Shown here: positions 1,714-18,016 of the stretch, piece by piece | Layout of the letters: each line of letters opens with the position of its first letter | Position numbering within the stretch: position 1 is the first letter of the stretch | Source: a virus | Lineage: Duplodnaviria > Heunggongvirae > Uroviricota > Caudoviricetes | Length of the DNA: 19,646 nucleotides | Direction: 5' to 3' (one strand) | IMG/VR virus record: IMGVR_UViG_3300030444_000128 | The notes under the pieces: generated by a model | Databases searched by the model: none | What the model was told of the DNA's origin: nothing | What the model saw: the letters and a program-made list of their open reading frames with translations, nothing else | Program-made: the position numbers and the translations under genes

Positions 1714-2387
1714 TGGCACCCACAATTTATCACCGTATCGACGGTACCAAATACAGGAATGTCTGGGTTGTTGGTGATCTGCATGGTTGCTACACCAGAC
1801 TGATGTCCGAACTCCATCGTGTGGATTTTGACCCGGCGCAGGATTTACTGATATCGTTCGGCGACCTTATCGATCGCGGTACTGAAAATGTCGAATGTCT
1901 GGAACTATTGCAGATGCCCTGGTTCAGGGCAGTGATGGGGAACCATGAGCGGCTGATGATTGATGCGTTAAGTCCAGATGGCAACGTGAATAACTGGCTA
2001 ATGAATGGCGGACAATGGTTCTTCATGCTGGACACTGATCAGGAAATATTAGCCTGGGCGCTGGTGGAGCTGGTAAAGCGTCTGCCCTATATCATTGAGT
2101 TGAACACCGGGCAAGAAACTATCGTTATAGCCCATGCCGACTATCCGGATAATGAATACCAATTCGGTAAGGAGGTGCCGCTTTTCAACGTTGTCTGGGC
2201 GCGCGAGCGTATCAGTGATTCGATGGATGATATTGGTGGCGAAATTTCGGGCGCAGATCGTTTTATCTTTGGTCACACTCCGGTGAAAAGCCCGAAGACA
2301 TTCTGGAATCAGCATTATATCGACACAGGTGCCGTATTTTGCGGAAACCTGACATTGATGAAAGTGAAAGGTGATGGTGCAGCATGA
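1695..2387 (+). CDS. Ser/Thr protein phosphatase, lambda-PPase-like (calcineurin-like metallophosphoesterase)
   Basis: Motifs in order: GDLHG, GDLIDRG, GNHE, then ...GHTP...IDTGAVF. Strongly resembles phage lambda phosphatase / E. coli PrpA along its whole length. Start could be ATG 1695, 1710 or 1713. Confidence 0.85.
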
Positions 2388-3085
2388 AGATTGCTTTAGT
2401 TCTTCGCTCTGGTGGTGACTATAACGCTTCCGATGTGCAGTGGCTGGTTAATCAACTGCCAAAAGGCTATGAAATTATTTGCCTGACAGACCTGAAGCGT
2501 TTACATGTACCTGGCGTCAAAGTTGTCCCATTGATCAACCAGTGGCAAAAGTGCCGTGGCTGGTGGGCGAAAATCGAGTTGTTCCGACCGGATATAACCG
2601 ATGATCTGTTCTATCTGGATTTGGACACGGTTATTGCCGGTGATATACGCCCAATCCTAGAGAATCCACCAACCAGCTTCACCATGCTTAGGGATTTTTA
2701 CCATCCACAATATCGTGGCAGCGGTGCCCTGTGGATACCAAATAGTGTAAAAGTGCATATCTGGAGTGCATTCTGGCAAGATCCGGAAGGTTGGATTGCT
2801 CGTTGTGTTACTACTGAATGCTGGGGTGAGCAGGGGTTTTTGCGGAAGGTTATGGGTGATGATACACCAGTATTTCAGGATCTGTATCCGGGATGGTTTG
2901 TAAGTTACAAGGCCGATGTTGTGGAACCTGGTTCGAAATATGCGAGCGCGCGTTACTCCAGGGGGAATGGGGCATTACCAAAAGACTGCCGAATAATCTT
3001 TTTCCACGGCAAACCGCGACCTCGCGAAGTGTCAGAGGATTGGCTTCCCCTTATCAGCTCATTTTTTGAGCGAGAATCAGAATAA
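2384..3085 (+). CDS. hypothetical protein, possible nucleotide-sugar (DXD-type) glycosyltransferase
   Basis: ORF 2384-3085, start overlapping the phosphatase stop (ATGA). Contains YLDLDTVI (DXD-like) after a beta-alpha-beta-like N-terminus. Family assignment is weak. Confidence 0.45.
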
Positions 3086-3086
3086 T

Positions 3087-3103
3087 ATTGCTCTAATAAT
3101 TCC
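3087..3103 (+). promoter_or_regulatory. C1-repressor operator-like site
   Basis: ATTGCTCTAATAATTCC versus the P1 C1 operator consensus ATTGCTCTAATAAATTT as I remember it (14/17). Lies immediately after the stop at 3083-3085. Confidence 0.6.
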
Positions 3104-3111
3104 ATATTTTT

Positions 3112-3141
3112 AAAACGTGATGTACACTCATCACGTTTTTT
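3112..3141. terminator. bidirectional rho-independent terminator
   Basis: AAAACGTGATG-TACACT-CATCACGTTTT: perfect 11-bp stem with an A-tract before and a T-tract after, so a hairpin plus U-run forms on either strand. Confidence 0.65.
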
Positions 3142-3152
3142 ATTAGAGCAAT
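3136..3152 (-). promoter_or_regulatory. C1-repressor operator-like site (inverted relative to 3087-3103)
   Basis: Minus strand reads ATTGCTCTAATAAAAAA (14/17 to consensus). Together with 3087-3103 it forms an inverted operator pair around the terminator, directly upstream of the 3167 operon. Confidence 0.55.
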
Positions 3153-3166
3153 CTATAAGGTGCACT

Positions 3167-3385
3167 ATGTGGCCATTCCGACGGAAATATCACTACTGGC
3201 TGATCGCCTTTGTTACGCTGACCGGCGGTATCAGGCATGTCATCACCAGGTATCGCAACAAGAGACTCACCTTAGCCAGAATTTTACAGGCTGCCATAGG
3301 TGAGGGACTGGATACAAATTGCGTAGTCCTTCCACCTTCATACTTAGGAAAAATGACCGAAGCACAAGCTAATACGGAACTTTGA
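3167..3385 (+). CDS. small hypothetical protein, probable single-pass membrane protein
   Basis: ORF 3167-3385 (72 aa). AAGGTG at 3157-3162, 4 nt before the ATG. Hydrophobic stretch YWLIAFVTLTGGI. Stop at 3383-3385 lies 1 nt before the next ATG (coupling). Confidence 0.4.
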   Translation: MWPFRRKYHYWLIAFVTLTGGIRHVITRYRNKRLTLARILQAAIGEGLDTNCVVLPPSYLGKMTEAQANTEL

Positions 3386-3386
3386 A

Positions 3387-4649
3387 ATGAGCACTTCAGC
3401 ACAAAACCAATCAATCGAAAATGTATCTATCCCTGATGTCCTGAATGCCGGTATCCCGGCCATTATCCAGAACATCCGGGCCGCGCAACGCCGCGTTAGT
3501 TGTGATGACCTCACAGCACGTTTTTTTGATAATGCGGTTCAGTCAGCGGAGATGCTTCACGCACAGCTTATTGATGTTTATAACGCAGAAGCTGATAGCC
3601 ATAACTCCCTGGTAGATGCAGCTGAAAATATGCAGTTGGATCTCGGTCTGAAGGGTAAAGAAATTGAAGAGCTTCAGCTGCAAATTGAACATTTGAAACG
3701 CCAGCAACAGGACGCGATCGACGATGCGACGCATGACGCCAACCAGCGTGCTGATAATGCCGAACGTATAAGCATTGAGCTGGAAACAAAACTCAATGAA
3801 ATGACCGCGATGGTTGAACTGCGGAACTCACAGATTTCAACGCTAAAATCTCAATATAAAGAGATCATGAAACTTGATCCTTTTAACCTTGAGAAACGCT
3901 ATAACAAAGCTAAAAGCGAGCGACAGGAACTGCGTAAGCAGGTCGCTGACCTTAACCAACAGCTCAAAAAAACTATTAAAGATGCAAGCGAAGCGCGCGT
4001 GGCATTTGCTAATAAAAAAGCAGAGGTTACCGCGCTGGTTAATGAGAATGCCAAATTTGCGACGCTCAAGAAGGAAATGTATGGCATTACTGAGCGCCGT
4101 TTCCCTGCAAGCAAACTTCATCCGACGTTAGGGCAAATCTCCTTCTTCCCGCGCCTCCTGGCTTATGGGATCTCATCGCCTAAAGAGTTCAATAACGAGC
4201 GTCCTTATATCGTTTCTAAGCTGGACTTTGCTTATCAGTTCTGCTGCGACATGGGCTATGCCATTGATATCCGAATCAACGAATGGTTGATGCCAAACTT
4301 CCAGCCGTTGGCAATTTTCCGCGAGTTCCAGCCGGAAGGTTGGGTAGAGTTCTTCCATGAATTGATCTGTAAAGAGATGGAAAGCCGCCGCCCGGAATTG
4401 GTCCGTCGAGTTGAGTGGGCGCAAGAGGTTATGTTGGCAGATGCAGAGCTGCCGTTCGAACCGGAATTCATTGATGATCTGGCAACTAAAGGGCTGCATA
4501 CCCTGTTTGATGTGGTTACCCGCCGTCATGAGCAGTTGGTTGTCGAATTGGGTTTAGAGGAAACTGCGGCAAGAAGACTTCTCGATGTTTGCTATGCACG
4601 TAGCGATGCATGGGAAAAAGAGAACGGCGGCACTATTTACGTTCGCTGA
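3387..4649 (+). CDS. hypothetical coiled-coil protein (420 aa)
   Basis: Long ORF with a heptad-like, charged Q/E/K-rich segment at roughly residues 90-220 and a globular C-terminal half. No family recognised. Followed by a strong terminator. Confidence 0.7.
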   Translation: MSTSAQNQSIENVSIPDVLNAGIPAIIQNIRAAQRRVSCDDLTARFFDNAVQSAEMLHAQLIDVYNAEADSHNSLVDAAENMQLDLGLKGKEIEELQLQIEHLKRQQQDAIDDATHDANQRADNAERISIELETKLNEMTAMVELRNSQISTLKSQYKEIMKLDPFNLEKRYNKAKSERQELRKQVADLNQQLKKTIKDASEARVAFANKKAEVTALVNENAKFATLKKEMYGITERRFPASKLHPTLGQISFFPRLLAYGISSPKEFNNERPYIVSKLDFAYQFCCDMGYAIDIRINEWLMPNFQPLAIFREFQPEGWVEFFHELICKEMESRRPELVRRVEWAQEVMLADAELPFEPEFIDDLATKGLHTLFDVVTRRHEQLVVELGLEETAARRLLDVCYARSDAWEKENGGTIYVR

Positions 4650-4668
4650 TGGTTACAGTGTCACTTTT

Positions 4669-4703
4669 AATGCTGGTGGAGTGCGCCCACCAGCATTTTT
4701 TTT
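4669..4703 (+). terminator. rho-independent terminator
   Basis: AATGCTGGTGG-AGTGCGC-CCACCAGCATT followed by TTTTTT: 11-bp GC-rich stem plus T-tract, 20 nt after the stop at 4649. Confidence 0.8.
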
Positions 4704-4722
4704 CGTCCAATGAGGAGGGCAT

Positions 4723-5229
4723 TTGAGTATTTACAATAAACACGCACACCAGGAACGTCCGTACATCGTCATAGTAGATATTGATGGGACGATATCAGAG
4801 GCAACGGAAGACAGGTTGCATTTACTTCCACCACCTGGCAAAGGTGCATTAACAGAGCACTGGAACGAGTTTAACCTTGCCTGTGACACTGATGCTCCCA
4901 TCACTCCAGTTATTGATATGGTGCGCCAGTTGTCCAGCATTTACACGCTCTGGTTTGTAACCGGGCGCTGTGAGATAGCCAGGGATAAAACACGAGCCTG
5001 GTTGCGTAAGCACGTAACAAATGGGGCTGAGCCTTTGCTATCTATGCGTCCTGCCACCGATGACAGAAATGATGGTCCAGCAAAGATTGATCTCCTTAAG
5101 AAAATTGGTCTAAGTAAAATTGCATTCGCGCTGGAAGATAAGATTGAAGTAGCGCGTGTTTTCAGGCATCACGGCGTGCTTACGTTAATGGTCAGAGAGT
5201 ACGAAAATGCGCTTCTTCATCAACAATAA
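4723..5229 (+). CDS. HAD-superfamily hydrolase-like protein (putative phosphatase)
   Basis: TTG start with GAGGAGG at 4712-4718. N-terminal VIVDIDGTIS (HAD motif I, DxDGT), FVTGR (motif II), AKIDLLKK and ALEDK (motifs III/IV-like). Confidence 0.65.
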   Translation: MSIYNKHAHQERPYIVIVDIDGTISEATEDRLHLLPPPGKGALTEHWNEFNLACDTDAPITPVIDMVRQLSSIYTLWFVTGRCEIARDKTRAWLRKHVTNGAEPLLSMRPATDDRNDGPAKIDLLKKIGLSKIAFALEDKIEVARVFRHHGVLTLMVREYENALLHQQ

Positions 5230-5245
5230 TTGCTCTAATAAATCT
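5229..5245 (+). promoter_or_regulatory. C1-repressor operator-like site
   Basis: ATTGCTCTAATAAATCT, 16/17 to the remembered consensus, overlapping the stop codon of the HAD gene. Confidence 0.65.
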
Positions 5246-5327
5246 TGATTTTTAAAACGGAGAAAGTGAAAATAAAAACATGCCGCAAGGCGCGGCATGT
5301 ATCCAATCAATCACAGGAGCTGAAAAT

Positions 5328-5414
5328 ATGAACACGGCATTCAAAATCATTATGGCCGCGATCTATTTCTGGCTGTTCTCTATCACTTTTGGCGGCATCG
5401 TCGCGCATGGGTAA
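5328..5414 (+). CDS. possible 28-aa hydrophobic peptide
   Basis: ATG 5328 preceded by AGGAG (5315-5319). Encodes MNTAFKIIMAAIYFWLFSITFGGIVAHG, essentially one transmembrane helix. Below the ORF-track cutoff; the call rests on the RBS and hydrophobicity only. Confidence 0.3.
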   Translation: MNTAFKIIMAAIYFWLFSITFGGIVAHG

Positions 5415-5493
5415 GGGGAGTATATTAGCCATTTGGAACCCCACGAGCTCTTGCGGGTTTAATTAAGAACCCGCAAGAAAAACACGAATTGGG

Positions 5494-8400
5494 CTATATT
5501 TTTCCGCCTACGCCTTTAAACTTCTCAATAAACGAGACGATTTTCTGGAAAACTGCCTGTTTTTTCGTTTTATATTGCGGATTCAACGGACTAAGTTTTG
5601 GTAATGTTTCGTTTAATTCTGTGCCATTTTCGGTGGCGTATTCGCGTTTTAAAGACGTGCGAATATAGCGTTTTGCTGCATCTTCATTGAGATTTTCTTC
5701 TTTTATCAATGCTTCTGCTTCACGTTGCTGTTCGCGTTGAGCAAACGTAAAGAATGCCTCAATGATACTGGCTTTGTCTGGTAAATCATCCAGGTTCGTT
5801 TGCTGAATAAAATCGACCACCAGGCCCTCTTTCGCCCGGTTCCCCAGGCTTGAACGAATTAAGCGTTTGACCTCTTCGATCATTTCGCCCTTGCCTTTAT
5901 TTTGTCTGTTGTGTTCGAAAATCAGTCCAAGGATATAATCCAGGTTTATTTCCTGAGACTTCAGCAAATCGACCTCAAAAACCACGTCATCCCAGTCAGT
6001 GGTTGATTTCTCTTTTTTCTCAGCTTCTTTCTCACGGCGCTGCCAGTCGCGAATATCGTTATAGGCAGAACGATAATCCTGAATCTTGCGATCAGCAGGG
6101 AGACGAATTGTTTGCAATTCAGCGAACTTTTCATCATCCACATAATGTTCTGCTTTGAATTTTTCTACCGCAACAGGATCGCTAAGATCGATTTGTTGCA
6201 GGGCTTTTAGCGTGGCAAATTCATCATAGTTTTGCAGGATGTTCTCGGCACGCAGGTATTCGCCAAACAGTTTAACGAAGTCTTTCTTCTCTTTTTCACT
6301 TTCAATACTGGCAGGGTCAGGGAACCGTTGTTCCAGTTCTGAAACTACTGCCATAAAGCCGCGTTTGGCTTCACCGGTGGCAGCATCAGTAAAACCTTCC
6401 ATATACTCTGCATAACTCTTTTCTAACACCACATTTTTGGTATTTTTATCACCAAACAGCGTTATGGCATCAATGGTTGAGCGTTCCAGATCCCGAAAAG
6501 TGACAATGTTACCGAAGGTTTTAGTGGCGTTATAAATGCGGTTGGTGCGGGAAAATGCCTGCATCAGGCCGTGAAAACGCAAGTTTTTATCGACGAATAG
6601 CGTGTTCAATGTTGGAGCGTCGAAGCCGGTTAAAAACATCCCAACGACAATTAACAGATCGATATCCTGATTTTTAACCCGTTGGGCTAAATCGCGATAG
6701 TAGTTCTGAAAACCGTTACCGTCGGTGCTGAAGTTAGTTTTAAAATAGCTGTTATACTCACGAATTGCAGCGTCAAGAAACTCTTTAGCACTGCTGTCCA
6801 TTGCGCTGGTATCAAAAGTTTCATCGGAAATTTCACCAATGGCATTTTGTTCTTCATTAGCGGCAAAGGAGAAGATTGTCGCAACACGCAGCGGTTTATA
6901 AGTTGCAGATTTATTAGCGGCTTCCTCTTGTAACCGTTTAAACGCCGCGTAATAGGCTTTTGCAGCATCCACGCTGCTCACTGCCAACATAGCATTAAAA
7001 CCTTTTGCGCCAGGGAAAGTACGGTGCGTCTTCTGGCGGAAGTTATTCAGAATATATTGCGTAATTTCCTGTATACGCATGGGATGAAGAAACGCCTGCT
7101 GATTTTCAGCCGCACTTAGTTTTTTCTCGTCAGTTTCTGTCTCTAAAGACTTAAACTGTGGCCGCACATCGTTGTAGTCCACCTTGAATTTGAGCACTTT
7201 TTCATCACGAATCGCATCGGTAATTACATACGAATGCAATTCACGACCAAATACGCTGGCGGTCGTTTCTGAGCCTAAGGCGTTTTCCGGGAAAATAGGT
7301 GTGCCGGTAAAACCAAACTGATAATAGCGTTTGAATTTCTTCTTCAGGTTTTTCTGCGCTTCTCCAAACTGGCTGCGGTGGCATTCATCAAATATAAACA
7401 CCACTTGCTGATTATATACAGGCAGGTCGCTTTCTGCTTTCATCAGGTTATTGAGTTTCTGAATAGTAGTGACGATAATTTTGTTATCGTCCTTATCCAG
7501 ATTTCGTTTAAGGCCTGCGGTATTTTCCGAGCCGTTGACGCTGTCTGGCGAAAAACGCTGATATTCCTTCATGGTCTGGTAATCGAGGTCTTTCCTGTCG
7601 ACCACAAAGAAGACTTTATCAATAAAGTCCAGCTCTGTTGCCAGACGCGCGGCTTTAAAGCTGGTGAGGGTTTTACCAGAACCGGTAGTGTGCCAGATAT
7701 ACCCACCGCTTTCCGGTTTTGACCAGTTCTTCGCTGTAAAGGAACTCTTAATTTTCCACAGAATGCGCTCGGTGGCGGCAATCTGGTACGGTCGCATCAC
7801 CAGTAGCGTCTGACTACTGTCAAAAACGCTGTAGTTCACCAGAACATTCAGCAGAGTATGTTTCTGGAAAAAGGTAGCGGTAAAGTCTTTGAGGTCTTTA
7901 ATCAGCGTGTTGTCTGATTTCGCCCAATTCATGGTGAAGTCAAAACTGTTTTTATCGCGCTTTGTCGTGTTGGCAAAATAACGGGTATCGGTGCCGTTAG
8001 AAATGACAAACAGTTGCAGATACTTAAACAGGGAATTTTCGCTGTTAAAACTCTCTTTACTGTAACGATGTATCTGGTTGAAAGCCTCACGAATCGCCAC
8101 CCCGCGTTTTTTTAGTTCGATTTGCACCAGCGGTAAACCATTAACCAGGATCGTGACGTCATAACGGTTAGCATGAGAACCCGTCTGTTCAAACTGCTGG
8201 ATAATCTGCACCTTATTGCGCATGAGATTCTTTTTATCTATCAAATAGATGTTCTCAAGTCGCCCGTCATCAAAAATAAAGTCGCAGATATAGTCGATAT
8301 GGATTTTACGGGTTTTATCCAGAATACCATCGCTGGGGTTGTCCAGATACTGCTCCGTGAAGCGCCGCCACTCGCTGTCATTAAACATCACACCATTGAG

Positions 8401-8610
8401 GCTCTGAAGCTGTTCCCGAACATTGGACAGCATTGCCGACTGTGATTTTACGGAAATAAATTCATAACCCTGATTTTGCAGGTCCTGAATCAGTTCACGT
8501 TCCAGGTCCGATTCGCTCTGGTAGCTGTCGCCTGTTGGCTCAGCTTTGATGTACTTATCAAGAACGATAAAGTTATTGGATTCAGCAATGGTGTGTGTCT
8601 GATGAGTCAT
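5494..8610 (-). CDS. hsdR: type I restriction enzyme R subunit (HsdR), EcoR124-like (type IC)
   Basis: 1038-aa ORF with helicase motifs ([12 protein letters not shown] Walker A; [14 protein letters not shown]-box-like) and the type I HsdR architecture. Length and N-terminus match my memory of EcoR124 HsdR. Lies downstream of hsdM-hsdS on the same strand. Confidence 0.93.
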
Positions 8611-8731
8611 AGCGCATCCTTTGTGCCGTCTGGCAAGGGCCGGAAGGGGGGTAATGGTGACTTCCGGCGCGTAAAAAATAGTCTATATACTGACCGGGTG
8701 TTAAGGTGGTCCGATCGGTAGCAATGATCAA

Positions 8732-9949
8732 TTAATTACTGGCAGTTTCAGGTTTCGGGAAACTGAACAGTAAATCACGGTAGTATTCGTATTGTTTCTG
8801 GCGCAACTCGATTTCACGCGGGAGACCTTCGGTGATAGAGTTGGTCAGGGTGTCGAATTTATCGAGTATTTCGACAATGCGAGCTTGTTCCTTAAGTGAT
8901 TTTTCGTGATCTTTAGGATATGGAACCGGAATCATAATTTTTGAAAAACCATTAATGAGTAGTGTATTAACTTTTGTTCTGGCTACATACTTTGCTTTTT
9001 CAGAAATAAACGAATCGGTTTGCATGTAATAGGAAATAAATTTTGGATTCAAAGAATGTCGAAAAGCATAACAGTGATCATGAATAGCGATATCGTCATC
9101 CCCAAGCCATGCCACTGCTTTACCAACGTCTTCTACAGTCTCCCCCACGTCAGTTATCACGACATCTCCATGTTTGGCATAGCGTAATGACGCTGCCATA
9201 TCAGCTCTAACCTGTGATAACGAATGAGTTGTGTAAACACCATATCGTGTATATATCTCACCATAATGGATTACACTGATACCACCATCTTCTACATAAT
9301 CTGCTTTAGTAAAACGTTTTCCACGAATAAACTCACCAATTTCCCCCAAAGTCTTCCACTCAACCTCACCATCTTTAAAACTCAACAACTGGTCGCGATA
9401 GTAGTTGTACTGTTTTTTACGCATGTTAAGCTCAGCGGTAAGCTCAGCGGTAAGTGCAGTAAATTTATCCAGAATCCGAACGATTTCAGACTGGATGGCA
9501 AGGGATTTTTCCGGATTATCCGGGCAGGGGATGGGGATAGGGAAATTCTCTAAGGTTGATAGCACGATATATGTCATTGCCGCGCTATTTGTTCTTTCCT
9601 CGAGATATTTCTTCAGGCTATGGCTAAGCACAAAATACAAAAATCTAACACTTACATTTTCGTCGAAATTTGTCAGAACATAGGTGCGCTGATAAGCCTC
9701 AAACTTGCCGATGTAATGCTTCACCTCACCAACATTCGCATTGCCTGCAATCAGCAATGCCTCTGTATCCCAGCGGAATTTATCAATTTTGCTTGTCTCT
9801 TTGGCTGTCGTGAAGAACATATACTCTCCATCATCAACAGCCGCATTCGCATTAAGCTTTCCTGTTTCAATTTTGCAAGTTTGCCCAAGTGTCTTCCACT
9901 CAACCTCAACCCCATCCAGCAATTTTTCCAGATAACTCATCTCGCTCAT
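8732..9949 (-). CDS. hsdS: type I restriction-modification specificity subunit (HsdS), type IC with TAEL x2 central repeat
   Basis: 405-aa ORF with two target-recognition halves (EVEWKTLG occurs twice) and the central conserved region ...[29 protein letters not shown]. Start ATG overlaps the hsdM stop (ATGA). Confidence 0.92.
9429..9452 (-). repeat. 12-bp tandem repeat (2 copies) encoding TAEL-TAEL in the HsdS central spacer
   Basis: Plus strand GCTCAGCGGTAA GCTCAGCGGTAA. On the coding strand this is the LTAELTAEL segment whose copy number is known to set the spacer length of type IC recognition sites. Confidence 0.9.
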
Positions 9950-11508
9950 TTCTGCACCTCGCAGCCTTCAATTTCAGCCACAATTGCATCAATATCTTTA
10001 CGCAACTGGTCGATTTTGCTGACCGTGGTTTTCAGCTCTGCATTCAGCTCACCGATATCGATAATTTCGCGGTTATCTTTCGCTTCCACATAGCTGCTCA
10101 CCGACAGGTTATAGTCATTCGCGACAACAGTCTCAAACGCAACAGATTTCGCCAGATGAGCAACATCTTCCTTGCTGGCAAATACCTGCATAATCTGTTC
10201 GATATGGGCATCGGTCAGGATATTGTTGTTGGTTTCTTTTTTGAACAGTTCGCTGGCATCAATAAACTGAACTTTGGTATCCGTTTTATGTTTAGACAGC
10301 ACCAGAATGTTTACAGCAATAGTGGTGCCAAAGAACAGGTTCGGTGCCAGTGAAATCACGGTTTCGACATAGTTATTATCGACCAGATACTGACGGATTT
10401 TCTGCTCCGCGCCGCCACGGTAAAAAATACCCGGGAAGCAGACAATCGCAGCACGACCTTTGGCCGAAAGATAGTTCAGCGCATGTAGTACAAACGCAAA
10501 GTCAGCTTTGGATTTGGGGGCCAGGACGCCAGCCGGGGCAAAACGTTCATCGTTAATCAGCGTCGGGTCATCGCTGCCAATCCATTTCACCGAATACGGC
10601 GGGTTAGAAACGATGGCATCAAACGGTTTTTCATCTCTGAAGTGTGGCTCAGTCAGTGTATTACCCAGCTTGATATCAAACTTGTCGTAGTTGATGTTGT
10701 GCAAAAACATGTTCATACGTGCCAGGTTATAGGTTGTATGGTTGATTTCCTGACCAAAAAAGCCTTCTTCGATGATATGGTTATCAAACTGCTTTTTAGC
10801 CTGCAACAACAGTGAGCCGGAACCCGCTGCCGGGTCGTAGATTTTGTTAACGTTGGTCTGCCCGTGCATAGCCAGTTGTGCAATCAGCTTGGAGACGTGC
10901 TGCGGTGTAAAGAACTCACCGCCTGACTTACCGGCATTTGCCGCATAGTTAGAAATCAGGAACTCATAGGCATCACCGAACAGGTCAATCTGATGTTCGT
11001 TGAAGTCACCAAGTTTTAACCCTTCAACCCCTTTCAGAACCGCAGCCAGGCGGGCATTTTTATCTTTAACGGTGTTACCCAGGCGGTTACTGGTGGTATC
11101 GAAATCAGCAAACAAACCTTTGATGTCTGCTTCTGAAGGGTAGCCGTAAGCAGAACTTTCGATAGCAACGAAGATGCTGTTTAAATCTGCGTTCAGTCTG
11201 TCATTGGTATTTGCTTTCGCAGCTACGTTGCAGAAAAGCTGACTGGGGTAGATGAAGTAGCCTTTAGTTTTGATGGCATCGTCTTTAATGTCATCAGTAA
11301 TTACGCTGTCATCCAGTTTCGCATAACAGATACTGTCATCACCGGCTTCAATATAACTGGAAAAATTTTCGCTGATAAAACGGTAGAAAAGTGCGCCCAG
11401 AACGTATTGCTTAAAATCCCATCCATCGACCGAACCCCTGACATCGTTAGCAATTTGCCAGATTTGACGATGAAGCTCTGCACGTTGTTGAATACTTGTC
11501 ATTTTCAT
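9946..11508 (-). CDS. hsdM: type I restriction-modification N6-adenine DNA methyltransferase subunit (HsdM)
   Basis: 520-aa ORF with the catalytic NPPY motif ([10 protein letters not shown]) and an AdoMet-binding region ([10 protein letters not shown]). Confidence 0.95.
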
Positions 11509-14167: not shown

Positions 14168-15361
14168 GTGACCTGGGACGATCACAAGAAGAATTTTGCT
14201 CGCCTGGCGCGAGATGGTGGTTACACCATCGCACAGTATGCCGCCGAGTTTAATCTTAACCCTAATACCGCACGTCGTTATCTCCGTGCCTTCAAAGAAG
14301 ACACCAGGACAGCGGACAGCCGCAAGCCAAATAAGCCAGTCAGGAAGCCACTAAAAAGCATGATCATTGATCACTCTAATGATCAACATGCAGGTGATCA
14401 CATTGCGGCTGAAACAGCGGAAAAACAAAGAGTTAATGCCGTTGTCAGTGCCGCAGTCGAGAATGCGAAGCGCCAAAATAAGCGCATAAATGATCGTTCA
14501 GATGATCATGACGTGATCACCCGCGCCCACCGGACCTTACGTGATCGCCTGGAACGCGACACCCTGGATGATGATGGTGAACGCTTTGAATTCGAAGCTG
14601 GCGATTACCTGATAGATAACGTTGAAGCGCGGAAGGCCGCGCGCGCTATGTTGCGTCGGTCCGGGGCCGATGTTCTGGAAACCACTCTTCTGGAAAAGTC
14701 TCTTTCTCATCTCCTTATGCTGGAGAACGCCAGGGATACGTGTATTCGCCTGGTGCAGGAAATGCGCGATCAGCAAAAAGACGATGATGAAGGTACTCCG
14801 CCTGAATACCGTATCGCGAGCATGCTAAACAGCTGTTCCGCGCAGATAAGCAGTCTGATCAACACCATTTACAGCATCCGGAATAACTATCGAAAAGAAA
14901 GCCGGGAGGCGGAAAAGCACGCTTTGTCTATGGGGCAAGCTGGCATTGTTAAGCTGGCATATGAACGAAAGCGTGAAAATAACTGGTCAGTGCTGGAAGC
15001 AGCTGAATTCATCGAGGCGCATGGTGGGAAAGTTCCGCCCCTGATGCTGGAGCAAATCAAAGCCGATCTGCGTGCTCCTAAGACCAATACCGATGATGAG
15101 GAAAGGCAAACAGCCGTCGGTGGCCCTTCTCTTGACGATCTGGACAAAGTTGCGCGAGAACGGGCCGCCAACCGCCGCGCCGATGCCGCATTGTGGATTG
15201 AGCAGCGTAGGGAAGAAATCGCCGATATCGTTGATACAGGCGGTTATGGAGATGTTGATACTGAAGGTGTATCAAACGACCCATGGCTGGAACAAGACCT
15301 GGACGAAGACGAGGAGGAAGACGAAGAAGTTACCCGCAAGCTATACGGGGATGATGATTAA
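14168..15361 (+). CDS. pacA: P1 PacA (pacase / terminase small component)
   Basis: 397-aa ORF from GTG 14168 (GGAAG SD). Contains the characteristic pac hexanucleotide cluster near its 5' end and an acidic C-terminal tail. Stop overlaps the next start (ATGA). Confidence 0.9.
14361..14519. other. P1 pac packaging site (4 + 3 TGATCA/G hexanucleotide repeats with Dam GATC sites)
   Basis: TGATCA at 14361, 14368, 14380 and 14395; TGATCG at 14491; TGATCA at 14503 and 14514. Two clusters about 90 bp apart inside pacA, matching the described roughly 160-bp pac architecture. Confidence 0.9.
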
Positions 15362-16340
15362 TGGCCAGAAGTTGCGTAACGGATCCTCGTTGGCGCGAGC
15401 TGGTGGCGCTATATCGTTATGACTGGATTGCTGCCGCTGATGTTTTGTTCGGCAAAACACCTACCTGGCAGCAGGATCTGATTATTGAGTCTGTGCAGGA
15501 ACAGGGTAGCAAGACATCTGTTTCGTCTGGTCACGGTACCGGGAAATCAGACATGACTTCTATCATGATCATGTTGTTCATAATCATGTATCCCGGTGCC
15601 CGCGCCATTATCGTTGCGAACAAAATTCAGCAGGTAATGACCGGTATATTCAAGTACATCAAGATAAACTGGGCTACTGCCACCAGCCGTTTTCCATGGC
15701 TTGCTGATTATTTTGTTCTGACAGAAACCGCTTTCTATGAGGTTACTGGTAAAGGTGTATGGACTGTATCAATATCATGATGGTGTCCGGCCAGCGAAAT
15801 AAACGCCGTGTAATCAACTATCGAATGCTGGAATACACAGACGTTACAGAAACGCAGCTTGCCGCCAAAATTTTCGCAGAATGTAATCCTGAGCGATTCC
15901 CCAATATCACCATAGCGATAGATGGCGATGGCCTGGGTAAAGCAACAGCGGATCTGATGTACGAGTATTATGGTATTACCGTACAGCGTATACGCTGGGG
16001 TAAAAAGATGCATAGCCGTGAAGATAAGAGCCTGTACTTTGATAAACGTGCTTATGCCAACGTTCAAGCCGCAGAGGCCGTAAAATCTGGTCGTATGAGA
16101 CTGGATAAGGGTAATGAAACTATTGAGGAAGCGTCGAAAATCCCTGTAGGGATTAACTCCGCAGGTCAATGGAAGGTGATGAGTAAGGAGGATATGAAGA
16201 AAAAACTCAACCTGCACTCACCAGACCATTGGGATACATATTGTTTCGCTATGCTGGCGGATTATGTTCCCCAGGATGAAGTGCTTAGCGTCGAAGACGA
16301 AGCGCAGGTTGATGAAGCTCTGGCATGGCTTAATGAATGA
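15361..16340 (+). pseudogene. pacB: pacB (terminase large component), apparently internally deleted and frameshifted
   Basis: Two ORFs in different frames: 15361-15780 carries the Walker A (SGHGTGKSD) and 15759-16340 carries a nuclease-domain-like segment ([11 protein letters not shown]...HSPDHWD). No Walker B anywhere. The combined length (~326 codons) is well below the ~494 aa I recall for P1 PacB. A TAA at 15750-15752 blocks the frame of the second ORF upstream. Confidence 0.6.
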
Positions 16341-16343
16341 ACA

Positions 16344-16360
16344 TTTGCTCTAATAAATTG
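16344..16360 (+). promoter_or_regulatory. C1-repressor operator-like site
   Basis: TTTGCTCTAATAAATTG, 15/17 to consensus, immediately after the pacB stop. Confidence 0.6.
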
Positions 16361-16490
16361 TGTTTTTTAGCTACCGATGTTACATTGAACCTGACCTCTT
16401 GCGCCTTGAGGCATTTTCGGTTTATGCTTATCAGGCACCTCATTAAAACGGGTGCCGGGATTGGCCTCCCGCTTAAGTCTAAGGCGATAC

Positions 16491-16514
16491 AGACGCCGCT
16501 CGCGTCTTTTTTTT
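16491..16514 (+). terminator. probable rho-independent terminator
   Basis: AGACGC-CGCTC-GCGTCT followed by seven T: short GC-rich stem plus T-tract, downstream of pacB. Confidence 0.5.
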
Positions 16515-16679
16515 GTATCGGCGTACACGCACACCTCTACAATGGTGGGCTGTATGGGGCTACCTTCGGGTAGGCTGGTTACCTTGGACGCCAGTAAGGC
16601 CAACTCCGTACAGTCCACCGCCAGCAAGATTGGTCTCTTCTGCGGTGGTTACATACCAACGTCTAAGGAGGCTGCCAAT

Positions 16680-16901
16680 ATGGCTACTATCCCTACCCCA
16701 ACTCATCCTGAATTTATCTGGCGCTTTTACTCCTGCCAAAAACGTCACTATCACTTCGTTATTGCACCAACAGAAGATGAGGCCCGCTCTCAGCTTCCTG
16801 ACGCCCCATGTATTTTCTCTGCCCGTTTTTCCACTGATTCACGCAATTCTCTCAGTTACTGGTGCCTCCCTGTTAACGCTTCTGTTCAGGAGGGGCTATG
16901 A
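16680..16901 (+). CDS. small hypothetical protein (73 aa)
   Basis: ATG 16680 preceded by AAGGAGG (16665-16671). Stop TGA overlaps the ATG of the next gene (ATGA at 16898), suggesting coupling. It is the inner part of ORF 16452-16901. Confidence 0.45.
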   Translation: MATIPTPTHPEFIWRFYSCQKRHYHFVIAPTEDEARSQLPDAPCIFSARFSTDSRNSLSYWCLPVNASVQEGL

Positions 16902-18016
16902 GAACGTCATTAGTCACCCGTGAAGAGATGATCGAGGCAATTGAACAGCACACTGCCTGTATCAGCACCAGGGATATTCCCAGTGTTATAGCCAACTACT
17001 TCATGATCACTAAACAACTTTACCGGAGAAAGGACAAGAACGCGGTTCACCGTATCCTGCTGTCTGATATTCGCGAATACCTGCTCGAACAGGGTCATCT
17101 GAATTACGCAACCGTCGCAGCCGAAGCACGCAAGGAGGCACACAGAATGAAAGCAACTAACGTTAAATCAGAAAAAATTCATGCACCTTCAGTTCAGGAA
17201 TCGGAGCTGGTGGTTGTTCAGAATCAGTCTGATGAAATTCCCGTTCTGGAATGGCAGGGAGTGCGTGTAGTGACAACCGAGACTCTTGCTAGAGGGTATG
17301 GGACAGAAACAATCCGTATTCGCCAAAATCATCATGAGAACAAAGTACGCTTTGTTGAAGGGAAGCACTTTTTCAAAGTTGAAGGAGAATCATTGCGCGA
17401 GTTGAAGCACAGAGTAGCTTTAAACTACTCTGTAAAAATTGCTCGCAATGTTCGCTCACTCACCCTCTGGACAGAACGCGGCGCAGCCCGCCACGCTAAA
17501 ATGCTCGAAACCGATCAGGCATGGGCATTCTTTGAAAAACTGGAAGACAGCTACTTCCGACAAAAAGAACAGCAACCGATCGCAATCCCCCAGACGCTTC
17601 CTGAAGCCCTACGCCTGGCTGCCGAACTGGCTGAACAAAAGCAACTTCTGGAACAGAAAGCCCACCAGCTAAATCAGCAGCTGGTGGCCGCCGCTCCTAA
17701 AGTCGATTTTGCCGACCGGGTATCAGTAGCTAAAGGGATCCTGATTGGGAATTTTGCAAAGGTTGTTGGACTTAAGCAAAACGCGCTGTTTGTCTGGTTA
17801 CGGGAGAACGGCATCCTGATAGCGTCCGGTGGACGTAAAAATGTGCCGTTCCAGCAGTACATCAACGCGGGGTATTTCACGGTGAAAGAAGTGGTGCTGG
17901 ATGATGAAGATGGCTACCAGATACGGTTGACGCCTCAATTAACGGGTAAAGGCCAGCAGTGGTTGACGCGTAAACTGCTCGATGCTGGCTTGTTAAAACC
18001 GGTGGCAGCTGAATAA
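16898..18016 (+). CDS. antirepressor-like protein (ORF6N-type N-terminal domain + KilA-C/Ant C-terminal domain)
   Basis: Middle region VRVVTTETLARGYGTETIRIRQNHHENKVRFVEGKHFFKVEGESLRELK resembles the ORF6N domain; the C-terminal part (...LFVWLRENGILIASGG...QQYINAGYFTVKE) resembles the phage antirepressor C-terminal domain. AGGAGG 4 nt before ATG 16898. An internal ATG at 17147 also has a strong AGGAGG SD, so a shorter 289-aa product is possible. Confidence 0.7.
   Translation: MRTSLVTREEMIEAIEQHTACISTRDIPSVIANYFMITKQLYRRKDKNAVHRILLSDIREYLLEQGHLNYATVAAEARKEAHRMKATNVKSEKIHAPSVQESELVVVQNQSDEIPVLEWQGVRVVTTETLARGYGTETIRIRQNHHENKVRFVEGKHFFKVEGESLRELKHRVALNYSVKIARNVRSLTLWTERGAARHAKMLETDQAWAFFEKLEDSYFRQKEQQPIAIPQTLPEALRLAAELAEQKQLLEQKAHQLNQQLVAAAPKVDFADRVSVAKGILIGNFAKVVGLKQNALFVWLRENGILIASGGRKNVPFQQYINAGYFTVKEVVLDDEDGYQIRLTPQLTGKGQQWLTRKLLDAGLLKPVAAE

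What the first reader, a model, noticed from the sequence alone, without database searches (positions are those of the whole stretch)
3087..5245. C1-operator-flanked unit encoding a small membrane protein, a 420-aa coiled-coil protein and a HAD-like hydrolase
The unit starts just downstream of an inverted operator pair and ends at another operator (5229-5245), with an internal strong terminator and a strong RBS before the HAD gene. This implies prophage-repressed genes of unknown function. Neither the coiled-coil protein nor the small membrane protein has a recognisable family by eye.
Basis: inference. Interest (0 to 1): 0.4.

Follow-up and report, generated by a model that had tools for sequence, protein, structure and literature searches.

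The report
Phage P1 pmgR–pmgS–pap early operon
This stretch is the already annotated, repressor-controlled pmgR–pmgS–pap operon of phage P1, so it is not a discovery, although the middle gene looks like a DNA-binding early protein, not the "head morphogenesis" protein its database label says.

Summary
Window 3087-5245 is 98% identical to P1 (AF234172 82152-84309). That record annotates the three C1 operators at exactly these positions: Op86a, Op86b and Op88. It also annotates the promoter PpmgR and the genes pmgR, pmgS and pap.

- **Published genetics:** deleting pmgR abolishes infectious phage and leaves unjoined heads and tails. Deleting pmgS or pap has no plating or antirestriction defect.
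- **PmgR:** the P1 protein is not predicted to span the membrane. D6-type relatives do carry a C-terminal membrane anchor.
- **PmgS:** it has a long coiled coil, a domain with no detectable fold relative, and a C-terminal (HhH)2 DNA-binding domain like the Rad51 N-terminal domain. Outside P1-like phages, its homologues sit in early regions beside RecT/exonuclease genes, DNA methylases or integrases. The label "head morphogenesis/scaffold/sheath" is therefore probably wrong.
- **Pap:** it is a stand-alone copy of the T4 Pnk 3'-phosphatase domain. Catalytic residues are conserved or conservatively replaced, and there is no kinase domain.
- **Architecture:** operators, the internal terminator and the TTG start of pap are conserved in a P1-like lineage with only 70% PmgS identity. 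Only the operators are kept in one with 53%.

Interest is low.

The parts
3087..3103 (+). C1 operator Op86a (OpmgRa). It overlaps the -35 of the predicted promoter PpmgR.
   Evidence: Consensus match. Annotated at the homologous position in P1 and P7. Present in 79 of 80 P1-like IMG/VR loci and in the diverged lineages JK004 and L098.
3088..3116 (+). Predicted sigma-70 promoter PpmgR: -35 TTGCTC at 3088-3093, a 17-nt spacer, and -10 TAAAAC at 3111-3116.
   Evidence: Transferred from the P1 annotation; sequence read. It is weak by consensus and was not picked up by the generic scan. The transcription start has not been mapped here.
3112..3145 (+). An 11-bp hairpin (3112-3122 / 3129-3139) plus a U-run, nested between the two operators. 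Probably the intrinsic terminator of the upstream ppp-pmgQ operon.
   Evidence: -13.4 kcal/mol, z = -5.2. The JK004 equivalent has a different stem sequence but the same structure, -14.0 kcal/mol. The terminator function is inferred.
3136..3152 (-). C1 operator Op86b (OpmgRb), downstream of the predicted transcription start.
3167..3385 (+). pmgR (72 aa; called shtA in P7). Essential for producing infectious P1.
   Evidence: 98% nucleotide identity to P1. The knockout phenotype comes from PMC9024508. phrog_3177 matches at 9e-46. The family is confined to P1/D6-like elements.
3387..4649 (+). pmgS (420 aa; called shtB in P7). Its start lies 1 nt after the pmgR stop codon. Non-essential.
   Evidence: phrog_1660 matches at 1e-195. 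The knockout is viable. The family has 123 cluster representatives.
3510..4082 (+). PmgS residues 42-232: two long helices (42-160 and 165-232), read as a coiled coil. A conserved LDP turn motif sits around residues 158-168.
   Evidence: AF2 model with pLDDT 71. Conserved columns K158, E159, M161, L163, D164, P165 and L168. Only compositional hits to SMC/Rad50/LmuB coiled coils.
4089..4436 (+). PmgS residues ~235-350: an alpha/beta domain with no detectable fold relative and no conserved catalytic-type residues.
4449..4631 (+). PmgS residues ~355-415: an (HhH)2 domain of the Rad51 N-terminal / RNAP alpha-CTD / NusA-AR type.
4669..4705 (+). Intrinsic terminator between pmgS and pap: an 11-bp stem with 6 G-C pairs, followed by T8.
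   Evidence: The segment holding this terminator (4651-4722) is found by blastn in 79 of 80 P1-like loci. JK004 has a different stem at the same place, -17.3 kcal/mol. L098 has no clear equivalent.
4712..4719 (+). Shine-Dalgarno sequence GAGGAGGG of pap.
   Evidence: Read directly from the sequence. JK004 has GGAGGG before a TTG at the same position.
4723..5229 (+). pap (168 aa, TTG start). A stand-alone HAD phosphatase of the T4 Pnk 3'-phosphatase type. Non-essential.
   Evidence: Pfam HAD_PNKP at 1.4e-11. phrog_415 at 2e-55. 29% identity to T4 Pnk residues 158-296 with catalytic motifs aligned. The knockout is viable.
5229..5245 (+). C1 operator Op88 (OpmgT). It overlaps the pap stop codon and controls the promoters of the next, variable, operon.
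   Evidence: Conserved in JK004 and L098 at the same place relative to the pap stop codon.

Best explanation
This is the early pmgR-pmgS-pap operon of a P1-like phage-plasmid.

**Regulation.** In the lysogen, C1 repressor occupies Op86a, which overlaps the -35 of PpmgR, and Op86b, which lies just downstream of the start site. This keeps the operon off. The operators and genes are annotated in P1; C1 binding was not tested here. After C1 is inactivated, transcription starts inside the small hairpin that sits between the operators. The new transcript therefore lacks the 5' arm of the hairpin. The hairpin probably serves only to terminate the upstream ppp-pmgQ operon (inferred).

**Products.**
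1. PmgR is a 72-aa soluble protein confined to P1/D6-like phages. P1 needs it to get from proheads plus tails to complete virions (published knockout). I take it to be a non-structural head-maturation or packaging cofactor, not a virion part (inferred, about 0.5).
2. PmgS is probably translationally coupled to pmgR. It is a coiled-coil protein with a C-terminal (HhH)2 DNA-binding domain (inferred from models and profiles built here). It is dispensable in the laboratory. I take it to be an early DNA-binding accessory protein acting on recombination or replication intermediates or DNA ends, not a head, scaffold or sheath protein (inferred from domain and gene context, about 0.35-0.4).
3. Pap lies behind an intrinsic terminator and has a TTG start, so it is probably made at a lower level (inferred). 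It is a stand-alone T4-Pnk-type 3'-phosphatase, most likely removing 3'-phosphate or 2',3'-cyclic-phosphate ends from nucleic acids. The fold and motifs were checked here; the substrate is inferred, about 0.4.

**Op88.** It belongs to the promoter of the next, hypervariable, region.

The confidence of 0.85 applies to the identity and regulation of the operon; the three functional assignments carry the lower probabilities given above.
For: **Identity**
- 98.1-98.5% nucleotide identity over the whole 2159 bp to P1. The same operators, promoter and genes are annotated there.

**Architecture under selection**
- The operator pair is present in 79 of 80 P1-like loci.
- Across those 80 loci, pmgR is present in 80, the terminator in 79 and pap in 78.
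- JK004 (PmgS 70% identical) keeps both operators, both hairpins with different stem sequences, GGAGGG plus TTG, and Op88 on the pap stop codon.
- L098 (53% identical) keeps the operator pair and Op88.
- A more distant P1-like phage, L003 (PmgS 27% identical), has an inverted repeat of a different sequence at the same place.

**PmgR**
- The knockout gives fewer than 100 PFU/ml and shows tails plus incomplete heads. It is rescued in trans, and PmgR was not detected in the virion proteome.
- D6-type homologues carry a C-terminal membrane anchor. That is hard to reconcile with a virion component.

**PmgS**
- The (HhH)2 domain is supported.
- Homologues outside P1-like phages lie directly after an exonuclease and RecT (L100), after RecT and Gp157 (L087), and near exoVIII, RecT, integrase and Dam (phiARM81mr).
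- Others lie next to DNA methylases or an integrase.
- PmgS is never mentioned in the main text of the virion-proteome paper, which includes the table of detected virion proteins. The knockout is viable and so is the CRISPRi knockdown.

**Pap**
- Alignment to T4 Pnk pairs D19/D21 with D165/D167, T80-G-R82 with S211-G-R213, D117 with D254, K121 with K258, and E138-D139 with D277-D278.
- The family occurs as a ~150-170-aa stand-alone protein in 1159 phage records.
Against: - No experiment here shows C1 binding, the transcription start, or termination and read-through.
- PpmgR is weak by consensus and escaped the generic promoter scan.
[quoted passage not shown] A small protein can be missed by mass spectrometry, so a structural role is not excluded.
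- The P1 PmgS sequence alone does not reach any Pfam HhH model. The (HhH)2 call rests on the family profile and on a predicted structure.
- (HhH)2-like folds can also be protein-protein modules, such as NusA-AR and SAM domains.
- Gene neighbourhood is suggestive only. It rests on about ten contexts, and early regions of temperate phages are mixed bags.
- Pap carries K for T4 R176 and E for T4 D277. No stand-alone member has a known substrate to my knowledge.
Confidence: 0.85

Rival explanations
1. The database-label reading. All three genes are virion morphogenesis genes: PmgS is a prohead scaffolding or head-morphogenesis protein (D6 and PHROG labels), or ShtA/ShtB are sheath assembly and contraction proteins (P7 labels).
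For: - Labels in P1 ('putative morphogenetic function'), P7 (shtA/shtB, 'sheath') and D6 ('putative prohead scaffolding protein'), and in phrog_1660 ('head and packaging').
- Long coiled coils are common in scaffolding proteins.
- pmgR really is needed for virion completion.
Against: - The in-frame pmgS deletion gives normal plaques and CRISPRi scores it non-essential.
- PmgS is absent from the main text of the virion-proteome paper.
- The operon has a C1-controlled early promoter, and no late promoter is annotated for it.
- Homologues in unrelated temperate phages sit in recombination, methylase or integrase regions, not in head or tail modules.
- The C-terminal (HhH)2 domain points to nucleic-acid work.
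- The pmgR knockout makes complete tails, which contradicts a sheath role.
Confidence: 0.08
2. Counter-defence module. PmgS and/or Pap protect incoming or replicating P1 DNA or RNA against host defence systems. For example, Pap would heal tRNA or DNA ends cut by defence nucleases, and PmgS would mask DNA ends or inhibit a nuclease such as RecBCD or SbcCD. They would be dispensable on laboratory K-12 hosts.
For: - In D6-like elements, pmgR-pmgS follow directly after the darB-ulx antirestriction genes.
- Elsewhere PmgS homologues neighbour DNA methylases.
- In three phages PmgS homologues lie just after an exonuclease-RecT or RecT module, directly in one and one or two genes away in the others. 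From my own knowledge, Gam lies next to exo and bet in lambda.
- Pap is homologous to the T4 Pnk phosphatase domain, whose known role, from my own knowledge, is to repair tRNA cut by the PrrC anticodon nuclease.
- Both genes are non-essential, yet pmgS is among the 21 most conserved genes of 77 P1-like plasmids.
Against: - pmgS and pap deletions show normal antirestriction against EcoA, EcoB and EcoK.
- Neither protein matches the PADLOC models beyond coiled-coil noise.
- Pap lacks the kinase half needed for the T4-type heal-and-seal pathway.
- No direct evidence of any kind exists.
Confidence: 0.2
3. A cassette of uncharacterised prophage-repressed genes whose first product is a small membrane protein, possibly with a host-killing or lysis-related role.
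For: - The operators are real.
- D6-type PmgR homologues do have a C-terminal hydrophobic anchor, with 19-residue hydropathy of 1.75-2.5.
Against: - P1-type PmgR has maximum hydropathy of 0.95 here and 0.39-1.25 in its 70-75-aa relatives.
- Its N-terminal hydrophobic stretch aligns with polar residues in homologues, for example FMTENGPRS and FADDAGRTRS.
- The genes are named. One has a morphogenesis phenotype, not a killing phenotype.
Confidence: 0.05

Closest known systems
Phage P1 pmgR-pmgS-pap operon with operators Op86a/Op86b and Op88 (GenBank AF234172; P7 shtA-shtB-pap, AF503408)
   Same: 98% nucleotide identity over the full 2159 bp. Same gene order and same operator positions to the base. 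PmgS is 99.8% identical at the protein level.
   Different: Only the flank differs. After Op88 and a conserved 28-codon ORF, this element carries a type I hsdR-S-M locus where P1 has pmgT to humD. Its pacB is broken.
T4 polynucleotide kinase/3'-phosphatase (Pnk, pseT), C-terminal HAD phosphatase domain; Pfam PF25109 HAD_PNKP
   Same: Pap aligns with T4 Pnk residues 158-296 at 29% identity. The DxDGT nucleophile motif, the S/T-G-R motif, the conserved Asp and Lys, and the (D/E)D motif are all in register. It passes the Pfam cut-off.
   Different: There is no P-loop kinase domain: 168 aa against 301 aa. K stands in for R176 and E for D277. The substrate is unknown. Database names such as 'polynucleotide kinase' or 'acid phosphatase' are not supported for the kinase part.
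(HhH)2 domains: Rad51/RadA/RAD51C N-terminal domain, RNA polymerase alpha C-terminal domain, NusA AR repeats
   Different: It is attached to a ~190-residue coiled coil and an unmatched alpha/beta domain, not to an ATPase core or a polymerase subunit. The P1 sequence alone is below the Pfam thresholds.
Other C1-controlled early operons of P1 (for example the neighbouring Oppp/Op83-controlled pmgN-ppp-pmgQ operon)
   Same: A 17-bp asymmetric operator overlaps a sigma-70 promoter, with the TTGCTC of the operator serving as the -35.
   Different: Here two monovalent operators in inverted orientation bracket the promoter, and a terminator hairpin for the upstream operon is nested between them.

Membership tests
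P1 C1-repressor operator | Match to the 17-bp asymmetric consensus ATTGCTCTAATAAATTT | tested here: met
   3087-3103 and 3136-3152 each have 3 mismatches, all in the 3' tail. 5229-5245 has 1 mismatch. 0 of 200 shuffles gave as many matches.
P1 C1-repressor operator | Positional identity with operators annotated or described in P1 | tested here: met
   The sites coincide with OpmgRa/Op86a, OpmgRb/Op86b and OpmgT/Op88 in AF234172 and with the P7 equivalents. An Op88 paper is listed.
P1 C1-repressor operator | Binding by C1 protein and repression in the lysogen | not testable with these tools
   This needs a footprint, ChIP or RNA-seq. I rely on the GenBank annotation and the older literature, which I could not read here.
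Punavirus (P1) pmgR-pmgS-pap operon | High nucleotide identity and synteny with P1 | tested here: met
   98.1-98.5% identity over 100% of the query in P1 records. ppp and pmgQ lie upstream as in P1.
HAD phosphatase, T4 Pnk 3'-phosphatase type (PF25109) | Score above the curated Pfam cut-off | tested here: met
   45.1 bits against a cut-off of 27.6, E = 1.4e-11.
HAD phosphatase, T4 Pnk 3'-phosphatase type (PF25109) | HAD motifs: I DxDxT; II S/T; III K; IV (D/E)D | tested here: met
   D19-I-D21-G-T23; T80; K121; E138-D139. These align with T4 D165/D167, S211, K258 and D277-D278. E replaces D277.
HAD phosphatase, T4 Pnk 3'-phosphatase type (PF25109) | 3'-phosphatase activity on nucleic-acid ends | not testable with these tools
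   An enzyme assay is needed.
Bifunctional polynucleotide kinase/phosphatase (the label given to Pap in many records) | N-terminal P-loop 5'-kinase domain | tested here: not met
   Pap is 168 aa and aligns only with T4 Pnk residues 158-296. No kinase family is hit. It should not be filed as a polynucleotide kinase.
(HhH)2 DNA-binding domain (PmgS C-terminus) | Two helix-hairpin-helix motifs in a five-helix fold; profile or structure match to known members | tested here: met
(HhH)2 DNA-binding domain (PmgS C-terminus) | The P1 sequence itself reaches a Pfam HhH model | tested here: not met
   No HhH family was listed for P1 PmgS at E <= 0.1. Membership rests on the family profile and the predicted fold.
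Integral membrane protein (PmgR) | A hydrophobic segment of about 19 residues with mean Kyte-Doolittle hydropathy of at least 1.6, conserved in homologues | tested here: not met
   The maximum is 0.95 for P1 PmgR, and 0.39-1.25 for the other 70-75-aa members and one 91-aa N-terminally extended form. D6-type members (93-103 aa) reach 1.75-2.5 in a C-terminal extension that P1 lacks, except the 103-aa P0177, which reaches only 1.0.
Phage prohead scaffolding / head morphogenesis protein (PmgS label) | Required for head assembly; encoded in the head module; present in proheads | tested here: not met
   The knockout plates normally. The gene lies in a C1-controlled early operon. Homologues in other phages lie in early recombination or methylase regions. 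Presence in proheads has not been tested.
Intrinsic (Rho-independent) terminator between pmgS and pap | G+C-rich hairpin followed by a U-run, conserved in relatives | tested here: met
   An 11-bp stem with 6 G-C pairs plus U8, -18.1 kcal/mol, z = -4.8. JK004 has a different stem and the same structure. Efficiency in vivo has not been tested.

The most novel reading that the evidence does not exclude
PmgS defines an unrecognised family of early phage proteins, with about 120 clusters at 50% identity. The architecture is a coiled coil, an orphan domain and a Rad51-N-terminal-like (HhH)2 domain. The family would work with RecT/exonuclease recombination modules or at DNA ends, for example as a recombination mediator or a host-nuclease antagonist analogous to lambda Gam, and not in head assembly. 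By extension, the essential partner PmgR would be needed because packaging substrates or filled heads fail without it, not because it is part of the neck.
Probability: 0.3. Interest if true: 0.45.

Novelty: already known. Interest (0 to 1): 0.2.

Why it matters
As a genome feature it adds nothing new: the operators, promoter and genes have been in the P1 record since 2004, and the knockouts were published in 2022.

The modest value lies in correcting annotation.
- 'PmgS-like head morphogenesis', 'prohead scaffolding protein', 'sheath contraction' and 'polynucleotide kinase' are propagated labels that the evidence here does not support.
- P1 is still the standard transducing phage, and P1-like phage-plasmids spread resistance genes.
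- pmgR is an essential gene without a mechanism, and pmgS is one of the most conserved P1-like genes without a phenotype.
- The (HhH)2 domain and the RecT-module neighbourhood give a concrete, testable direction for PmgS.

Tried and rejected
- **Single-sequence searches.** Pfam, NCBIfam and PADLOC scans of PmgR and PmgS gave nothing, or only coiled-coil noise such as SMC, Rad50, LmuB and TPR. I rejected these as compositional.
- **PDB by sequence.** PmgS and the PmgR family profile found no relative. So no PDB chain in this copy is a detectable sequence relative of either.
- **Unavailable library.** The afdb50 library was not available.
- **Locus searches.** The search for related loci with the broad PmgS alignments failed for lack of a conserved stretch. 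The P1-like alignment returned only near-identical P1 loci. P0076 found nothing.
- **PmgR outside P1/D6-like phages.** The small proteins upstream of PmgS homologues in phiARM81mr, L092 and L094 are not PmgR relatives.
- **Separate pap promoter.** None is apparent between 4650 and 4722 and none is annotated in P1.
- **RNA genes.** Rfam and tRNA scans found nothing inside 3087-5245 on either strand.
- **Literature.** The P1 genome paper (PMC523184) is not held, so I used its GenBank record instead.


Full report
**1. The observation**

- The P1 C1 operator consensus matches at 3087-3103 (+), 3136-3152 (-) and 5229-5245 (+). The window holds five matches with at most 3 mismatches, against 0.15 expected, and none of 200 shuffles reached five.
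- The first two sites are a perfect 13-nt inverted repeat.
- ORFs of 72, 420 and 168 codons fill the space between them.
- A strong hairpin plus T8 lies between the second and third ORF: -18.1 kcal/mol, z = -4.8.
- GAGGAGGG precedes the TTG start of the third ORF.

**2. What it is**

The 2159 bp are 98.1-98.5% identical to phage P1 and 97% identical to P7. The P1 record AF234172 annotates, at the homologous bases:
- operator OpmgRa (former Op86a), 'controls expression of pmgR and pmgS';
- the predicted promoter PpmgR;
- operator OpmgRb (Op86b);
- the genes pmgR, pmgS and pap;
- operator OpmgT (Op88), with the promoters P1/P2pmgT of the next operon.

P7 calls the same genes shtA, shtB and pap. 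Op88 is the subject of Citron, Velleman and Schuster 1989, as listed in the references of PMC1934351. I could not read the P1 genome paper itself.

**3. What is published about the genes**

- Gonzales et al. 2022 (PMC9024508) made in-frame deletions.
- The pmgR deletion gives fewer than 100 PFU/ml. [quoted passage not shown] Plaque formation is restored in trans.
- PmgR was not detected in the virion proteome, and HHpred found nothing.
- The pmgS and pap deletions plate normally and show normal antirestriction against EcoA, EcoB and EcoK.
- PmgS does not occur anywhere in the main text, which includes the table of virion proteins.
- A CRISPRi screen scored all three genes non-essential and lists pmgR as a known essential gene that the screen missed (PMC10695390).
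- pmgR and pmgS are among the 21 most conserved genes of 77 P1-like phage-plasmids (PMC9603915).

**4. Is the architecture under selection?**

- Among 80 P1-like IMG/VR loci, the inverted operator pair is present in 79.
- In the same set, pmgR is present in 80, the pmgS|pap terminator in 79 and pap in 78.
- In Cronobacter phage JK004, PmgS is only 70% identical. Both operators, Op88 on the pap stop codon, GGAGGG plus TTG, and both hairpins are kept. The hairpin stems have different sequences, so the structure and not the sequence is conserved.
- In a third lineage (L098, PmgS 53% identical), the operator pair and Op88 are kept. An extra 101-codon gene separates pmgS and pap, and no clear terminator is seen.
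- In a far more distant P1-like phage (L003, PmgS 27% and PmgR 36% identical), an 18-nt inverted repeat of a different sequence sits in the same place upstream of the pmgR homologue. It probably serves that phage's own repressor.

**5. The nested hairpin**

- Between Op86a and Op86b lies an 11-bp hairpin (3112-3122 / 3129-3139) followed by U6: -13.4 kcal/mol, z = -5.2.
- JK004 has a compensated equivalent.
- The annotated -10 of PpmgR (3111-3116) lies at the 5' foot of this hairpin. A transcript started from PpmgR would therefore begin in the loop and could not form the hairpin.
- I infer that the hairpin terminates the upstream ppp-pmgQ operon and that the operators were built around it. This is inference; no terminator is annotated there in the P1 record.

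**6. PmgR**

Its best 19-residue hydropathy is 0.95.
- In homologues, the N-terminal hydrophobic stretch alternates with polar residues and is followed by a polar turn: FMTENGPRS in L003 and FADDAGRTRS in D6. That looks like a beta-hairpin, not a helix through a membrane.
- The conserved core ends in an SYLGKMTE motif.
- The family is confined to P1/D6-like elements of about 90-100 kb.
- D6-type members (93-103 aa) add a C-terminal segment. In all but one of them its sequence varies but its hydropathy is always 1.75-2.5, which marks a tail anchor. P1-type members (70-75 aa) lack it.
- A membrane-tethered form is hard to reconcile with a neck or head-completion subunit.
- Together with early expression and absence from the proteome, I favour a non-structural cofactor of head maturation or packaging, at about 0.5. 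The published phenotype does not distinguish the two options.

**7. PmgS**

- Single-sequence searches give nothing except coiled-coil noise.
- An exhaustive profile search found 123 cluster representatives, mostly full-length proteins of 360-470 aa.
- Of 42 aligned members, 14 hit Pfam HHH_5 and 12 hit RNA_pol_A_CTD at the C-terminus.
- The family profile hits the Rad51 N-terminal domain at E = 1.1e-7 and the RNAP alpha-CTD at 4.4e-7.
- AlphaFold2 with the family alignment gives pLDDT 93 and pTM 0.87 for residues 232-420.
- The full-length model (pLDDT 71) has helices 42-160 and 165-232, joined at a conserved K-E-x-M-x-L-D-P motif.
- No acidic or histidine constellation is conserved across the family, so it looks like a binding protein and not an enzyme.

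Gene context of PmgS homologues:
- In D6-like elements the order is darB, ulx, intervening small genes, then the pmgR-like gene and pmgS. L092 has the same darB-ulx flank, but the small gene before its PmgS homologue is not a recognisable PmgR relative.
- In other temperate phages, homologues lie directly after a PD-(D/E)XK exonuclease and RecT (L100).
- One lies after RecT and Gp157 in a lambdoid early-left operon (L087).
- One lies beside exoVIII, RecT, integrase and Dam (Aeromonas phiARM81mr).
- One lies after YfdP/YfdQ and before a methylase (Vibrio phage).
- Others lie next to DNA methylases or near an integrase.
- None of these contexts contains head or tail genes apart from a large-terminase-like gene about 3.5 kb downstream in L090; in D6-like and P1-like elements the flanking genes are darB/ulx or other pmg genes.

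I conclude that PmgS is an early, non-essential, probably DNA-binding accessory protein. Its most likely field of action is recombination or replication intermediates or DNA ends, at about 0.35-0.4. The labels 'head morphogenesis', 'scaffolding' and 'sheath contraction' are unsupported.

**8. Pap**

- Pfam HAD_PNKP scores 45.1 bits against a cut-off of 27.6, and phrog_415 matches at 2e-55.
- I recalled the T4 Pnk sequence from memory. I verified that it is 100% identical to T4 records.
- Aligned with it, Pap covers only the phosphatase half, residues 158-296, at 29% identity.
- The aligned pairs are D19/D21 with D165/D167, K40 with R176, T80-G-R82 with S211-G-R213, D117 with D254, K121 with K258, and E138-D139 with D277-D278.
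- That these T4 residues are the catalytic ones is from my own knowledge of the T4 Pnk literature, not from a tool.
- There is no kinase domain, so 'polynucleotide kinase' is a mislabel.
- The same stand-alone protein occurs in 1159 phage records from many genera.
- In one non-P1 phage it occurs in the same operon as a PmgS homologue (L091).
- The terminator upstream and the TTG start suggest lower expression than pmgR and pmgS (inference).
- The most likely activity is 3'-end healing of nucleic acids. The substrate and its purpose are unknown.

**9. Both strands and RNA**

Rfam and tRNA scans find nothing within the unit. The antisense ORFs inside pmgS have no support, and none is annotated in P1.

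**10. This particular element**

- It is a P1-like phage-plasmid variant.
- Homology with P1 ends just after a conserved 28-codon ORF downstream of Op88. A type I hsdR-S-M locus of the EcoR124 kind then replaces pmgT to humD.
- 18 of the 80 loci share this arrangement, 29 have pmgT, and 33 have something else.
- Its pacB carries a 503-nt internal deletion with a frameshift. The element may therefore be unable to package DNA.

**11. Verdict**

The feature is already known, and interest is low at 0.2. The remaining open points are the mechanism of PmgR and the function of the PmgS family. They are real but modest. The most novel reading not excluded is that PmgS is a recombination-module or DNA-end accessory protein, with probability about 0.3.

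Noticed in passing
window 3112-3145: An 11-bp hairpin plus U-run is nested exactly between the inverted operators Op86a and Op86b. It is conserved with a different stem sequence in Cronobacter phage JK004 (L093 3225-3255). It is probably the terminator of the upstream ppp-pmgQ operon, and no terminator is annotated there in the P1 record.
   Followed up: partly
window 5278-5300 (hairpin) and 5329-5415 (ORF): An unannotated 28-codon hydrophobic ORF (MNTAFKIIMAAIYFWLFSITFGGIVAHG) with its own ribosome-binding site lies just downstream of the Op88-controlled promoters, preceded by a conserved hairpin. Its protein is identical in P1 and P7; in JK004 the sequence has diverged but an ORF starting at the same place still begins with a hydrophobic stretch; and the segment is present in 77 of 80 P1-like loci. 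Homology with P1 ends about 10 nt after its stop codon.
   Followed up: partly
window 5494-11508 (minus strand): A type I restriction-modification locus replaces P1's pmgT to humD region: hsdR with the EcoR124 C-terminal domain, then hsdS and hsdM. 18 of 80 IMG/VR P1-like loci and hundreds of plasmids share this arrangement. The P1 record already notes that the sequence after Op88 also occurs downstream of the EcoDXXI and R124/3 hsd loci. No prrC gene lies between hsdS and hsdR.
   Followed up: partly
window 15361-16340: pacB, the large terminase subunit, is broken. Residues 1-136 are encoded in frame 1 (15361-15768) and residues 288-494 in frame 3 (15747-16337). This is a 503-nt internal deletion relative to phage RCS47. 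The element may be packaging-defective, unless this is an assembly error.
   Followed up: partly
window 16344-18016: Between pacB and c1 there is an extra immunity-type module, as in phage RCS47: a C1-operator-like site (16344-16360), isrK-like RNA (16435-16512), C4 antisense RNA (16538-16625) and an antirepressor gene with ORF6N and KilAC domains (16898-18016).
   Followed up: no
proteins P0170, P0174, P0178-P0193 (D6-type PmgR homologues); L086 3603-3899: All but one of the D6-type PmgR homologues of 93-103 aa (the exception is the 103-aa P0177, hydropathy 1.0) end in a hydrophobic, transmembrane-like segment with 19-residue hydropathy of 1.75-2.5. The 70-75-aa P1-type proteins lack it.
   Followed up: partly
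L003 9701-9753: In a distant P1-like phage, an 18-nt inverted repeat of a different sequence (CAAAAGATACTAATTTAT / ATAAATTAGTATCTTATG) occupies the position of the Op86a/b pair upstream of the pmgR homologue. This suggests an operator pair for a repressor of different specificity.
   Followed up: no
window 2384-3085 (pmgQ) and 1695-2387 (ppp): The upstream operon encodes a lambda-type Ser/Thr phosphatase (Metallophos) and PmgQ. PmgQ matches a PHROG family labelled glycosyltransferase at 2e-126 but matches no Pfam family. P1 therefore carries two unrelated phosphatases, Ppp and Pap, in adjacent early operons.
   Followed up: no
L091 888-1478 and 3468-4679; L098 5360-5665: In a non-P1 phage contig (L091), a HAD_PNKP phosphatase gene lies in the same operon as a PmgS homologue. 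In L098, an extra 101-codon gene sits between pmgS and pap.
   Followed up: no
GenBank MH160767 / NC_050153 (hits H14, H15): In phage vB_EcoM-Ro157c2YLVW, one of the three features under the pmgR-pmgS-pap match is annotated 'L: RNA-directed RNA polymerase L', an evident annotation error. Many other records call Pap a polynucleotide kinase although it has no kinase domain.
   Followed up: no
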